From assembly GCF_009914755.1 (NCBI RefSeq), contig NC_060931.1: a DNA stretch of 64,000 nucleotides. The stretch is one strand, 5' to 3'. The translations under genes were made by a program, and so were the position numbers. Shown here one piece after another: positions 31,801 through 34,800 of the stretch. The notes under the pieces were generated by a model. It did no database searches and was not told the origin of the DNA. It worked only from the letters and a program-made list of their open reading frames with translations. The stretch comes from the human T2T-CHM13v2.0 reference genome, Homo sapiens. Every line of letters begins with the position of its first letter. Position 1 is the stretch's first letter.

Positions 31801-34800
31801 CTGGTGTTCATCTTTGCCCCCTACTGCCATATTCCACCCAGCAGCCAGAGGCATCTTTTAAAAATGGGATCAGTCTCATCTGACCCCTGGTCAAAAACTT
31901 CTTAAGGCTTTCCATGCCTCTTAAAACAAAATTGAAAGTTTTGTTGTTGTTGTTGTTGAGACAGTGTCTAGCTCGCTTGCCCAAGCTGGAGTGCAGTGGT
32001 GCGATCTTGGCTCACTGCAACCTCCACCTCCCAGGTTCAAGCGATTCTCCCACCTCAGCTTCCCGAGTAGCTGGGACTGCAGGCACACGCCACCACATCC
32101 GGTAATTTTTGTATTTTTAGTGGAGATAGGGTTTCACCATATTGGTCAGGCTGGTCTCAAACTCCTGACCTCGGGTGATCACCTGCCTTGGCCTTGCAAA
32201 GTGCTGGGATTACAGGCGTGCGCCACCGCGCCCGGCCTTATCAGAACTTCTTGCGTGGCCTTCGAGACCGTGGACTCTGGTTCCTCCTCTCTGCAGGCCT
32301 GTGCCCCTGCTTTCCTGTGTTTGGCTCACAAGTTTCCTTTCTGTCCCTCAGTCACTCTGCCCTGGGCCCCTCAGGGCGCCTGTGTGCTGTTTTCTCAGCC
32401 TGGAACATTCTTCCTCCTGACATCTGCGCGGCTCCCTCCCTCCCATCATTCAAAGCTCTACTTTAGGCAGGCTCCTCAGGCCCTTTCCTCTAAACACGTG
32501 CCCTCCCACCCTCCTCCACCCTGGCTCTCTGGAGAGGAGAAACACACTGGTTTCTCCTCTTCTTCCTCTCTGGGATGAGGCCTCGTGAGGGCAGGACCTC
32601 TGTGTAACTCCCGTATTTCCAGCCCCTGGCACAGTGCCTGGAGTAAGGAATATTATTAGTCCAGTGAGTGCTGCAGAGCCTCCATCTGGCCTCTGACCCC
32701 CGCCCCCTCGCTCCCCCTCTCCCAGGGCCCCTTCGTCCACATTGCCAGCATCTGTGCTGCTGTCCTCAGCAAATTCATGTCTGTGTTCTGCGGGGTATAT
32801 GAGGTAAGGTTGAGACAGTGAAATGAGCTGGGGCCAGGTGGTAGAAGGAGTCCGGCTGTGTGTCCAGGGTGTTGGGAGGGCTGCCTCTGCTCTGGGCTGG
32901 CTGTGGTGCTGAAGCAGCATCGCACTAATCCACGCTCCCTTCCTCGTCCCCCTGTCTGCCTACCCTGGCCACATGATGCCTCTGTTTAGCCTGTGCCTGT
33001 CCTCCAAATGTCCACCCCTCTTTCACCTGTGGCCCCACATGGAGGTCTGGTCTGTCGTCTGCTCCCATGCTCTCCCTGCTAGTCCATACCACCCCCTCTG
33101 TGTCAGTTTCCCTCCACGTTTCCCTCGTGTGCTCCCCCATCCCTTTGTAGCTCCCAATCCCTCACCCTACCTCTTACATACGTCCCGCCTGCCCCACCCC
33201 TCCACCCCCTTGTCCCGCGTGCTTCTCTGTTGCAGACCGTGCCTGGGCAGCTTGACCTCCTGGTGTCAGCCTGTGCAGTGGGCGTGGGATGCTGCTTTGC
33301 AGCCCCTGTCGGAGGCAAGTTGCACTTCCTCCCTATCCCGGTTGCCTAAGCAAGACTTAGAAGGGGGTTTTGGGTGGCTGCCACAAGCTTTGGAGTGGGC
33401 ATCCAGGGAATGACTGTGGATCACAGCCCCTGCGGTCCAGATACCTATATTTTTTCAGCAAAGGGCTGTGTATTATTTTGAGACTGCTTGCTGTTTGGTG
33501 CAGGATTTATTAGTACTGCTTTCTGGAGTTCTTGCTGTCTCTTTTCTGCTTATCATTTATTGATTTACGTGCCTGGCATATATTTGCCTAACTTTTATTT
33601 CATTTTCTACCTTCTATTTCATTTTGACACTGTGCTATGAGGTTAATTCCTTTTTGCCAAACTCACTGAGTTTCTCTTGGCCTGGGAATCACAGGGGACA
33701 TGGGACCACAAGGACTCCTTTTGACTTAGGCCTCTCATTCTGCCTTATTCCCCATCCCTGCTTGTTCTGTCCTCTGCCTGCCCACCTCCCTCTCTTCCAC
33801 CTGTTTCTCTGTCTGTCTCTCCCCTAGTAGCAGCCATACTACTACTCTGATATCCTGACGGTGGGCTGTGCTGTGGGAGTCGGCTGTTGTTTTGGGACAC
33901 CACTTGGAGGCAAGTGATTGACCCCCTCCCCCATCAATCGGCTTGCCTGGCCTGGCTCCCAAAACAGTTTTAATCAGTATCCACAAGTGCTGGTATTACC
34001 AGGTTACTTACGAGAATAGCTGACTTTTAGTAAGCCTTTGCTATGTGCCAGGCAATGTTTAAAGCACTTACTTTTATTCCTGGCCAAAGCCATATGAGAC
34101 AGATATTACAGAGGAGGAAGAGGAGAGAACTGAGTTACAGAGAGGGACAGTGACTTGAGCAAGTTCATTCTGTTAGTAAGGTACAAGCCAGGAATTAAAA
34201 CCAAGGCAGTCTCCGTGGCTCCCCTACTTATTTTCAAACCTGTTTGTATTGTTGGATGTTTTTGCCCTACACCGATGACATCTCTAACAGGGGACTCTAT
34301 GAACTTCCTCCTTCAAGGGAAAAATCCACATTTTGTTGTGCTTTATTAATTGCATGGGAATTCAGGTAGACCTTATTTAGATTAATGGTAAGCTTTTAGT
34401 GTGGAATAGTTAGGAGAGTTTCAAAGGATAAATGTCCCTTGATAGCAATTTAAAGTTAAGTTTAGCTCTTTCTCCAAGTATAAGGCAAATAGCGATCTCT
34501 CAGATTATTTTCCTTATCATGGATGATTAACAAATGGATGTAGTCGGAGAAAGCAGTCGTATCTGTTTATTGACTCATCAAAATCAATTATAGCTAGATT
34601 AGCAGGGCAGGATTATATAGATCATTCACTGGATTCATTGATGATAAAAAGGACACCAAGTTGATATGTGAAGAAACAAAATTGCAGGAAGGGCATATGC
34701 TTCTTAAATGACCCACTGTTAGAGGTTTCTTTTCAGTTATGGAAATGTTAAGCAATCTTTTCATAGAATCTTCCAGGGAACTAAAATGACTTGGTGCAGG

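What the first reader, a model, noticed from the sequence alone, without database searches (positions are those of the whole stretch)
33236..33909. CLCN1 'poison' exon 7a is a coding-conserved, ClC-2-like twin of exon 7: candidate mutually exclusive ClC-1 isoform
Seen: 7a (33236-33314) and 7 (33831-33909) are both 79 nt, enter in phase 0, leave in phase 1, and end GGAG|gcaagt with a rare GC donor. After exon 6, 7a reads without a stop as [26 protein letters not shown] versus [26 protein letters not shown]. That is 13/26 identical, and 8 of those 13 codons differ only synonymously (gac/gat, gca/gct, ggc/gga, gtg/gtc, gga/ggc, tgc/tgt twice, cct/cca), the signature of protein-level selection. 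Known: 7a is described as a frameshifting MBNL-repressed exon in fetal and myotonic dystrophy muscle; this segment carries Cys277 of the common gate; ClC-2 here reads (from memory) [21 protein letters not shown], closer to 7a than to 7. Inference: a 6-7a-8 mRNA encodes a full-length 988-aa channel with swapped helix G / G-H loop and possibly different gating. Alternatively, a former mutually exclusive exon was repurposed as an NMD switch. I cannot tell whether this has been published.
Basis: partly seen in the sequence, partly recalled or inferred. Interest (0 to 1): 0.85.

Follow-up and report, generated by a model that had tools for sequence, protein, structure and literature searches.

The report
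Ancient twin of CLCN1 exon 7
The "poison" exon 7a of the human muscle chloride-channel gene is an ancient, still intact duplicate of exon 7 that could replace it to give a full-length channel; exon-duplication catalogues already list this, but nobody appears to have tested the channel.

Summary
Exon 7a (33236-33314) and exon 7 (33831-33909) are both 79 nt, both phase 0 to 1, and both end GGAG|gcaagt. They share 13 of 26 residues, and 8 of those 13 codons differ only synonymously. A 6-7a-8 mRNA reads 988 aa without a stop; 6-7a-7-8 stops at codon 291.

7a is closer to ClC-2 and ClC-K than exon 7 is. Both exon types occur in mammals, sauropsids and teleosts, and the 7a type also in a newt, so the duplication predates bony vertebrates. 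Exon 7 is the derived copy. Many annotated ClC-1 proteins, and one spliced transcript contig from another mammal, carry 7a in place of 7.

The idea is already published, though only in supplementary tables. Martinez-Gomez 2021 lists CLCN1 event 44 (ENST00000650516, 988 aa, this exact peptide, dated Euteleostomi). Hatje 2017 lists the CLCN1 pair among its 1,399 RNA-seq-validated mutually exclusive exons. The myotonic-dystrophy papers I read never mention it.

Current protein-level selection in mammals is not shown. An inferred murid 7a differs from human at 5-7 of 79 nt, mostly non-synonymously (Cys to Tyr, Val to Asp).

Most likely 7a is an ancient mutually exclusive coding exon that mammals now use mainly as an MBNL-gated NMD switch.

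The parts
32726..32803 (+). CLCN1 exon 6, the shared upstream exon; it ends in phase 0 (...TATGAG|gtaagg)
   Evidence: for the sequence; for the 774 coding nt through exon 6; hub annotation.
33205..33250 (+). 7a acceptor region: polypyrimidine tract, AG, and the first 15 nt of 7a. It matches by position the mouse segment that binds MBNL1 and carries the 8-nt exonic splicing enhancer (ESE) at the 5' end of the exon
   Evidence: for the sequence. One search finds YGCY motifs at 33220 and 33240. Passages of Kino 2009 (PMC2770659) describe mouse RNA 473-518, an ESE at 504-511 'completely conserved in human', and the mutations a504c/c511a/t512g; those base identities match ACCGTGCCT here. The mapping by offset is my inference.
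33236..33314 (+). Exon 7a: 79 nt, phase 0 to 1, encoding [26 protein letters not shown]. It is the ClC-2-like (ancestral-like) copy of the duplicated exon
   Evidence: The same peptide, 79 nt long and 595 nt upstream of exon 7, appears in the Martinez-Gomez 2021 table.
33315..33320 (+). GC donor of 7a (gcaagt)
33315..33830 (+). 516-nt spacer between 7a and 7, long enough to be spliced out. This permits 7a-7 co-inclusion. It is rich in YGCY motifs (2.9 per 100 nt against 1.32 gene-wide)
33831..33909 (+). Exon 7: 79 nt, phase 0 to 1, residues 259-284 of ClC-1. It is the default and derived copy. A tandem tag-tag acceptor lies just upstream; an alternative start at 33828 inserts TAG
   Evidence: identical to PDB ClC-1 residues 259-284; hub annotation; passages of Nakamura 2015.
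33910..33915 (+). GC donor of exon 7 (gcaagt)
40201..40326 (+). Exon 8, the shared downstream exon, entered in phase 1

Best explanation
Exons 7a and 7 are tandem duplicates of one ancestral 79-nt CLC exon. The duplication happened before ray-finned fishes and tetrapods split. 7a kept the ancestral, ClC-2/ClC-K-like sequence. Exon 7 diverged early and then froze.

Because 79 is not a multiple of three, only one of the two can be used productively. 6-7-8 and 6-7a-8 each encode 988 aa. 6-7a-7-8 shifts the frame and stops at codon 291.

In mammals exon 7 is the default. 7a is held out by MBNL acting on the acceptor and 5' end of 7a. When 7a escapes, in newborn or myotonic-dystrophy muscle, it is mostly joined to exon 7, and the mRNA is lost to nonsense-mediated decay. 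I think this regulated switch-off is what selection now mainly preserves in mammals.

The full-length 6-7a-8 isoform (ENST00000650516) is made at low level. Its protein function in humans is unproven.

Shown: the homology, the frames, the antiquity, and the existence of 6-7a-8 models and one transcript.
From the literature: the MBNL and NMD steps.
Inferred: that the regulatory role now dominates.
For: Anatomy and frames.

Homology beyond chance: (score 69 against the next best 7, among 108 windows).

Paralogues: the human CLCN2, CLCNKA and CLCNKB exons are also 79 nt and phase 0 to 1.
- 7a shares 15/26 residues with CLCN2 and 12/26 with CLCNKA.
- Exon 7 shares 12/26 and 7/26.

Antiquity:
- The 7 type is found in mammals, birds, reptiles and teleosts.
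- The 7a type is found in mammals including marsupials, a newt, 33 sauropsid entries, bichir, gar and teleosts.
- The pipefish and croaker models carry both types in the order 7a then 7.

Tree: the 7 type is one clade (100/99) on a long stem of 1.09 changes per column. The 7a type lies on short branches, unresolved, with ClC-2.

Evidence for a regulatory role:
- The inferred murid 7a differs from human at only 5-7 of 79 nt. 24 of 26 third codon positions are identical, and 3 of the 4 changed codons are non-synonymous (S to P, C to Y, V to D).
- 7a is far more variable as a protein than exon 7: 37 distinct sequences among 74 proteins, against 9 among 120.
- Kino 2009 reports an ESE and MBNL1 binding at the 5' end of 7A.
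- YGCY density around 7a is 2-3 times the gene average.
- Lueck 2007 and Hu 2023 describe 7a inclusion as frameshift and PTC.
- The proteomics column for the CLCN1 event in Martinez-Gomez 2021 is blank.
Against: - The human 7a peptide equals the commonest mammalian form (10 proteins) and carries no damaging change.
- Between mammals, sauropsids and fishes, changes sit mostly in the first six residues or are conservative (S/A, V/I/L). [10 protein letters not shown] stays almost fixed. That is a protein-like pattern over more than 300 million years.
- 13 of the 33 hits, and 38 of the 44 proteins examined, show a clean 6-7a-8 join.
- P0017 is a 421-aa protein from a 1376-nt contig, so it comes from a spliced RNA, and it carries 6-7a-8.
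- Hatje 2017 required junction reads from each exon bridging the other.
- The blank proteomics entry says little. The tryptic peptide covering either exon runs about 51 hydrophobic residues with no K or R inside (sequences).
- The murid inference rests on two stored peptides that may not come from one species.
Confidence: 0.58

Rival explanations
1. 6-7a-8 encodes a physiologically used ClC-1 isoform in humans, for example in fetal, regenerating or non-muscle tissue. It carries a ClC-2-like segment at residues 259-284 and has altered gating. The NMD outcome is a secondary consequence of the pair being frame-locked.
For: - Intact consensus ORF in human.
- Deep conservation of a CLC-like peptide in every tetrapod class and in fishes.
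- Many 6-7a-8 gene models, and one spliced transcript contig in another mammal.
- Annotated as protein-coding ENST00000650516 and listed among RNA-seq-validated MXEs, with tissue-differential inclusion in the Human Protein Atlas set (adjusted P 0.032 and 0.047).
- The product has the same length as the normal mRNA. The size-based RT-PCR and the 6-7 / 7a-7 junction assays used in the field cannot see it.
Against: - Radical substitutions at otherwise fixed positions in some mammals: CC to CY in 3 entries, V to D, F to L, and P to H in Cercocebus.
- The human-murid differences are mostly non-synonymous, and synonymous sites are almost unchanged.
- No peptide evidence.
- Gene models can pick 7a without RNA support.
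- I saw no read counts.
Confidence: 0.3
2. 7a is a recent copy, made by gene conversion or insertion from CLCN2 or from exon 7, and not an ancient duplicate.
For: 7a resembles CLCN2 more than exon 7 does: 52/79 nt and 15/26 aa.
Against: - 27 of 79 nt differ from CLCN2 and 37 of 79 from exon 7.
- Orthologous 7a-type exons stand at the same place in marsupials, sauropsids, a newt and fishes.
- Martinez-Gomez 2021 dates the event to Euteleostomi.
Confidence: 0.02
3. The similarity is chance, or 7a is a decayed pseudo-exon with an accidentally open frame.
For: Frame +1 of 7a is also open, so openness alone is weak evidence.
Against: - Score 69 against the next best 7 among 108 comparable windows.
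- PDB hits to ClC-2 and ClC-1 only, plus a weak one to CmCLC.
- Conservation across vertebrates.
Confidence: 0.01

Closest known systems
Tandem-duplicated, frame-locked mutually exclusive exons, as catalogued by Hatje et al. 2017 (PMC5740500) and Martinez-Gomez et al. 2021 (PMC8373072)
   Same: Adjacent homologous exons of equal length and phase. Either one gives a full-length protein; both together shift the frame. The pair predates bony vertebrates. This very pair is in both catalogues.
   Different: In CLCN1 co-inclusion is not a rare error. It is the main documented fate of 7a, and it is regulated by MBNL in development and disease. The minor exon has no protein evidence, and some mammals carry damaging-looking changes in it.
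SCN5A fetal/adult mutually exclusive exons misregulated in myotonic dystrophy (Freyermuth 2016, PMC4831019; I saw only the start of its abstract in the search listing)
   Same: An ion-channel gene with a mutually exclusive exon pair whose choice shifts in myotonic dystrophy, as that abstract describes it. That the exons are duplicates and that the shift is to the fetal exon is my recollection.
   Different: As I recall it (not checked here), the SCN5A fetal exon gives a working channel with altered gating. For CLCN1 the known outcome of 7a use is loss of mRNA, and the 7a-only channel has not been recorded.
Orthologous exon of human CLCN2 (L002) and of CLCNKA/CLCNKB (L006, L007)
   Same: 79 nt, phase 0 to 1, same place in the protein. 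7a shares 15/26 residues with CLCN2, including [13 protein letters not shown].
   Different: The paralogues have a single copy with GT donors. Only CLCN1 has two copies, and both have GC donors.
Classical poison (NMD) cassette exons
   Same: Inclusion puts a stop codon far upstream of the last junction (codon 291 of 988). Inclusion is controlled by RNA-binding proteins. The human-murid comparison suggests high nucleotide conservation at all codon positions.
   Different: Unlike the classical poison exons I recall, which carry a stop or have no coding relative, 7a has no stop in frame, is a homologue of the neighbouring coding exon, and can substitute for it in frame.

Membership tests
Tandem-duplicated homologous mutually exclusive exon pair | Neighbouring exons of one gene with the same length and phase | tested here: met
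   Both are 79 nt and phase 0 to 1, with starts 595 nt apart.
Tandem-duplicated homologous mutually exclusive exon pair | Sequence homology between the two exons beyond chance | tested here: met
   13/26 aa identical. BLOSUM62 score 69 against the next best 7 among 108 comparable intronic windows. Both match ClC-1 and ClC-2 in the PDB.
Tandem-duplicated homologous mutually exclusive exon pair | Each exon alone keeps the reading frame; both together, or neither, do not | tested here: met
   6-7a-8 and 6-7-8 both give 988 aa. 6-7a-7-8 stops at codon 291. Skipping both removes 79 nt and shifts the frame, by arithmetic.
Tandem-duplicated homologous mutually exclusive exon pair | Junction evidence in human RNA that each exon is spliced to the common flanks without the other | not testable with these tools
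   No RNA-seq is available here. Indirect evidence: the pair belongs to Hatje 2017's 1,399 MXEs, which required such reads. Its read counts are in .xls files I could not open. In another mammal a spliced contig shows 6-7a-8 (P0017).
Tandem-duplicated homologous mutually exclusive exon pair | Both copies conserved across species | tested here: met
   The 7 type occurs in mammals, sauropsids and teleosts. The 7a type occurs in mammals, a newt, sauropsids, bichir, gar and teleosts. The published date is Euteleostomi.
Poison exon / AS-NMD switch | Inclusion creates a premature stop well upstream of the last exon junction | tested here: met
   The stop falls at codon 291, in exon 7 of 23 exons. This agrees with 'codon 290' in Lueck 2007.
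Poison exon / AS-NMD switch | Regulated inclusion by splicing factors, with loss of mRNA | not testable with these tools
   Literature only: Kino 2009, Nakamura 2015, Lueck 2007 and Hu 2023. YGCY enrichment around 7a is consistent with it.
Poison exon / AS-NMD switch | Nucleotide conservation that does not spare synonymous sites | tested here: inconclusive
   One comparison only. The inferred murid 7a differs from human at 5-7 of 79 nt, 24/26 third positions are identical, and 3 of 4 changed codons are non-synonymous. No genomic DNA from other vertebrates was available.
Voltage-gated CLC channel transmembrane segment (ClC-1 residues 259-284) | The peptide matches CLC channels at the homologous position, with the conserved cysteines kept | tested here: met
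   7a aligns to ClC-2 residues 238-257 (E 6e-5) and ClC-1 residues 265-284 (E 0.01). The cysteines matching C271, C277 and C278 are kept.
Voltage-gated CLC channel transmembrane segment (ClC-1 residues 259-284) | The 7a version folds into, and functions in, a channel | tested here: inconclusive
   The AlphaFold2 model of the beluga 6-7a-8 protein was unusable (mean pLDDT 39.4, membrane domain below 50). No functional data exist in the papers I searched.

The most novel reading that the evidence does not exclude
ClC-1(7a) is a real full-length channel isoform in humans. It would be made in fetal, regenerating or myotonic-dystrophy muscle, or outside muscle, whenever 7a is chosen and exon 7 is skipped. 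It would carry an ancestral ClC-2-like segment next to the common-gate cysteine and gate differently. It has gone unnoticed for more than twenty years because its mRNA is exactly as long as the normal one, and the standard assays read only the 6-7 and 7a-7 junctions. Part of what is scored as 'correctly spliced' CLCN1 would then be this isoform. Antisense drugs that block 7a would remove it too.
Probability: 0.2. Interest if true: 0.7.

Novelty: already known. Interest (0 to 1): 0.35.

Why it matters
Exon 7a is the textbook mis-spliced exon behind myotonia in myotonic dystrophy, and it is a target of antisense therapy.

- **It reframes 7a.** It is not a stray piece of intron. It is the ancestral-like twin of exon 7, more than 400 million years old, and able to encode a complete channel.
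- **It exposes a blind spot in the usual assays.** A 6-7a-8 product co-migrates with the normal product, and neither the 6-7 nor the 7a-7 junction probe detects it.
- **It bears on variant interpretation.** Variants in 7a would count as deep intronic relative to the reference transcript, which lacks 7a (my inference).
- **It offers a natural ClC-1/ClC-2 chimera** at residues 259-284 for gating studies.

The core fact is already in Ensembl and in two published supplementary tables. What remains is to connect those catalogues with the disease literature and to do the functional test.

Tried and rejected
**Chance similarity:** rejected.

**Recent conversion from CLCN2:** rejected.

**Coupling of 7a to an alternative first exon:** considered because P0017, P0023, P0024 and P0026 have non-canonical N-termini. 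Rejected because the same N-termini occur with exon 7 (Sarcophilus P0052 against P0026; Panthera P0102 against P0156).

**Structure:**
- An AlphaFold2 model of the beluga 6-7a-8 protein, built from a 30-row alignment, was too poor to use (mean pLDDT 39.4).
- I therefore ran no fold search, and the helix naming is untested.

**dN/dS across vertebrates:**
- Not possible, because no tool gave vertebrate genomic DNA other than human.
- As a substitute I inferred one murid 7a sequence from two overlapping reading frames found in stored proteins.
- No other protein carried the +1 frame.

**Literature, found nothing:**
- 'CLCN1' with 'tandem exon duplication': 0 papers.
- 'ENST00000650516': 0 papers.
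- The 7a peptide: 0 papers.
- In some searches, no listed title or abstract start called 7a a homologue or duplicate of exon 7. I opened only six of those papers.
- The readable supplements of Lam 2021 and of the 2022 GBE paper do not list CLCN1.
- The main texts of Hatje 2017, Martinez-Gomez 2021 and the 2022 GBE paper never name CLCN1.

**Hatje's coordinate and read-count tables:** these are .xls or .pdf and could not be read. I tie cluster 2732 to the 7/7a pair through and through the 'Event is in Hatje et al' flag.

**Gar model P0033:** it reads through about 110 codons after the 7a-type exon without an intact 7-type exon. Only one frame is visible, so I draw no conclusion about loss.
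Full report
**1. The observation**

- Exon 7a lies at 33236-33314 and exon 7 at 33831-33909. Each is 79 nt.
- The coding sequence through exon 6 is 774 nt, so both exons enter in phase 0 and leave in phase 1.
- Both follow an AG acceptor and end GGAG|gcaagt, a GC donor.
- In frame, 7a reads [26 protein letters not shown] and exon 7 reads [26 protein letters not shown].
- They share 13/26 residues, and 8 of the 13 identical codons differ only at synonymous sites. Nucleotide identity is 42/79.

Joining the annotated exons in a script gave these products:
- 988 aa for 6-7-8.
- 988 aa, no internal stop and 13 changed residues for 6-7a-8.
- A stop at codon 291 for 6-7a-7-8. This agrees with the truncation 'at codon 290' reported for mouse (Lueck 2007, passages).

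As a chance control I scanned the introns beside every internal CLCN1 coding exon. I looked for windows of the same length and frame as the neighbouring exon, without a stop, flanked by AG and GT/GC. There are 108. 7a scores 69 (BLOSUM62) against its neighbour exon, and the next best scores 7.

**2. What 7a resembles**

Against all PDB chains, the 7a peptide hits ClC-2 best (26.5 bits, [20 protein letters not shown]). ClC-1 comes second (18.8 bits). Exon 7 hits ClC-1 residues 259-284 exactly.

A search of the window's own genome found the paralogous exons of CLCN2, CLCNKA and CLCNKB. All three are 79 nt and phase 0 to 1, and all have GT donors.

Residue identity:

| Exon | vs CLCN2 | vs CLCNKA |
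|---|---|---|
| 7a | 15/26 | 12/26 |
| 7 | 12/26 | 7/26 |

So 7a is the conservative copy and exon 7 the divergent one.

**3. Age and spread**

I searched the large protein collection with 7a plus seven intron-derived codons on each side. This returned 33 proteins out of 62 candidates. Read out, they break down as follows:

| Count | What the protein shows |
|---|---|
| 13 | A clean exon 6 - 7a - exon 8 join: beluga X2, Kogia X5, fallow deer, mouse lemur X2, gray whale cluster of 44, Chinese hamster, cotton rat, stoat X2 cluster of 21, Cercocebus X4, Tasmanian devil, wombat, bichir, and the unnamed P0017 |
| 1 | Starts in intron 6 and joins 7a to exon 8 |
| 2 | Join 7a to a shortened exon 8 |
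| 2 | Contain both exons, through read-through or an internal donor |
| 1 | The frameshifted 7a-7 product |
| 3 | Read on into the intron after 7a |
| 11 | Genomic ORFs from unnamed contigs |

P0017 is 421 aa from a 1376-nt contig, so it derives from spliced RNA. It is 94% identical to the human 6-7a-8 protein (338/359). At least one other mammal therefore makes a 6-7a-8 RNA.

A search with exon 7 plus the start of exon 8 listed the best 120 of 2588 hits. The 7 type occurs in placentals, marsupials, monotremes, birds, turtles, tuatara, squamates and teleosts.

A search with 7a plus the start of exon 8 listed the best 120 of 2873 hits. Of the 44 new entries I read out:
- 40 are 7a-type ClC-1: 6 felid, 1 newt, and 33 from birds, squamates, turtles and alligator.
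- 3 are ClC-2.
- 1 is a teleost 7 type.

Two teleost models (pipefish P0035 and croaker P0036) read both exons in the order 7a then 7, with only 9 or 13 residues between them. A third (toothfish P0177) joins a 7a-type fragment directly to the 7 type.

Both types are therefore older than the split of ray-finned fishes and tetrapods.

A tree of the 26-residue segments (33 rows, 25 distinct) has few columns and is mostly unresolved. It does place all 7-type exons in one clade (100/99) on a long stem of 1.09 changes per column. The 7a type sits on short branches with ClC-2.

**4. Already in print**

The disease and regulation papers I read treat 7a only as a frameshifting insert. These were Kino 2009, Nakamura 2015, Lueck 2007, Hu 2023 and the Nakka 2018 review, all read as passages. 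Their minigenes end at exon 7. Their assays read band size or the 6-7 and 7a-7 junctions.

Two genome-wide studies do list the pair:
- **Hatje 2017, Dataset EV5** lists CLCN1 cluster 2732, made of one annotated exon and one exon with an 'MXE' identifier.
  - The analysis covered their 1,399 validated MXEs, which needed junction reads from each exon bridging the other.
  - Inclusion differs among Human Protein Atlas tissues (adjusted P 0.032 and 0.047). It is NA at the second listing of each exon, further down the file; I did not see the third, nor which sheet either belongs to.
- **Martinez-Gomez 2021, supplementary table** lists CLCN1 event 44.
  - It pairs ENST00000343257 with ENST00000650516 (988 aa) as an internal event.
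  - The last common ancestor is Euteleostomi, 'Event is in Hatje et al' = 1, and the proteomics column is blank.
  - It gives the exon peptides [27 protein letters not shown] and [27 protein letters not shown].
  - It gives hg38 coordinates 595 nt apart, the same offset as in the window.

Neither paper names CLCN1 in its main text. Searches for the transcript id, the peptide, or CLCN1 with 'tandem exon duplication' found no paper.

**5. Is 7a still under coding selection in mammals?**

The synonymous differences between 7 and 7a, and between 7a and CLCN2 (16 of 27 differences at third positions, P 0.005), show coding constraint over deep time.

Evidence for constraint since then:
- The human peptide is the commonest mammalian form.
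- Marsupials differ from it by one or two residues.
- Sauropsids differ at six positions, mostly in the first four residues or by conservative changes.

Evidence against:
- 7a is much more variable than exon 7: 37 distinct sequences in 74 proteins, against 9 in 120.
- Some mammals carry changes at positions that are otherwise fixed: CC to CY in three rodent-like contigs, V to D, F to L, and P to H in Cercocebus.

The Mus pahari X2 model (P0046) happens to translate 7a in the +1 frame. A rodent-like contig (P0012) gives frame 0. Only four nucleotide sequences fit both peptides.
- They differ from human at 5-7 of 79 nt.
- 24 of 26 third positions are identical.
- Of four changed codons, one is synonymous and three are not.
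- As I recall, neutral human-mouse divergence is several-fold higher than this.

This looks like constraint on the RNA itself. It fits the ESE and MBNL1 site at the 5' end of 7A (Kino 2009) and the two- to three-fold YGCY enrichment around 7a. It is one comparison, and the two peptides may not come from the same species.

**6. Reading**

The pair is an ancient frame-locked mutually exclusive pair. In teleosts the tiny spacer suggested by the gene models (26 and 38 nt by my arithmetic) would forbid joining 7a to 7. In human the spacer is 516 nt, so co-inclusion is possible, and it destroys the frame.

I think mammals have turned that into the MBNL-gated switch described in the literature. The coding 6-7a-8 form persists at low level (confidence 0.58).

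The rival, that 6-7a-8 is a used isoform in humans, stays open (0.3). The blank proteomics entry does not count against it. The tryptic peptide over either exon is about 51 hydrophobic residues with no K or R inside (sequences).

An AlphaFold2 model was unusable, so nothing here speaks to gating.

**7. Verdict**

The central idea is already catalogued, so novelty is low.

Three things seem not to have been said in the texts I could search:
- That this catalogued event is the 'exon 7a' of myotonic dystrophy.
- That 7a, not exon 7, is the ancestral-like copy.
- That current assays cannot see the 7a-only product.

The functional test has not been done.

Noticed in passing
window 33288-33296 vs 33883-33891: The Cys-Cys codons are TGC TGC in 7a, which creates two YGCY (MBNL-type) motifs at 33290 and 33293. 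Exon 7 uses TGT TGT there and has none at that spot. Synonymous choice may help set the two exons apart for MBNL (the function is my inference).
   Followed up: partly
window 32799-33314: Frame +1 of 7a is also open. An ATG formed by the last bases of exon 6 (..tATGAG) leads through it into exon 7 in the correct frame. The Mus pahari X2 model (P0046, 764 aa, cluster of 20) is exactly this N-terminally truncated ORF of the 6-7a-7-8 mRNA.
   Followed up: partly
window 32990-33044: This is the only 55-nt window in intron 6 with a good acceptor (tttag) and a GT donor, so it is probably the human-specific exon 6B (55 bp) of the literature.
   Followed up: no
window 33825-33830: A tandem tag-tag acceptor lies before exon 7. 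Using the upstream one (exon start 33828) inserts an in-frame TAG. This matches the 'TAG-inserted pattern' of Nakamura 2015 and the other RefSeq transcript.
   Followed up: no
P0035, P0036, P0177 (teleost ClC-1 models): The 7a-type and 7-type exons are read in tandem with 9 and 13 residues between them in P0035 and P0036. That implies spacers of about 26 and 38 nt, too short for an intron, so mutual exclusion would be steric in teleosts. P0177 joins a 7a-type fragment straight to the 7 type. All of this rests on gene models; I saw no fish DNA.
   Followed up: no
P0160-P0192 (sauropsid 7a-type exons): Sauropsid 7a ends FGAPLG, close to exon 7's FGTPLG, where mammals, newt and fishes have FAAP(V/I/L)G. 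The tree therefore pulls sauropsid 7a next to the 7 clade (96/95). This could be partial gene conversion between the two exons, or convergence.
   Followed up: no
P0033 (alligator gar model), residues after the 7a-type exon: The read-through after the 7a-type exon holds fragments such as YYTPELTV and LYTDNLTV that recall the start of the 7 type (YTDILTV), inside what looks like a short tandem repeat. This may be a decayed 7-type exon, or chance.
   Followed up: no
P0017, P0023, P0045, P0102, P0156 and others: Several mammals share an alternative first coding exon (consensus about ..EDTELGA..QG....HQLL.QIYGHHK) joined to exon 2. It occurs with both the 7 and the 7a forms.
   Followed up: partly
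P0018, P0023, P0031, P0038 and the 872-aa Bos models: A recurrent predicted isoform of about 872 aa joins ..GGYAVI directly to DSMILLG... About 116 residues of the late membrane domain are skipped. It is seen with both exon 7 and 7a.
   Followed up: no
window 33315-33340 and orthologous contigs P0002-P0014: The first 20-25 nt of the intron after 7a are conserved across mammals; read in frame they give GK(S/L/F)H(F/I)LP in nearly all of them. This suggests a regulatory element just past the GC donor.
   Followed up: no
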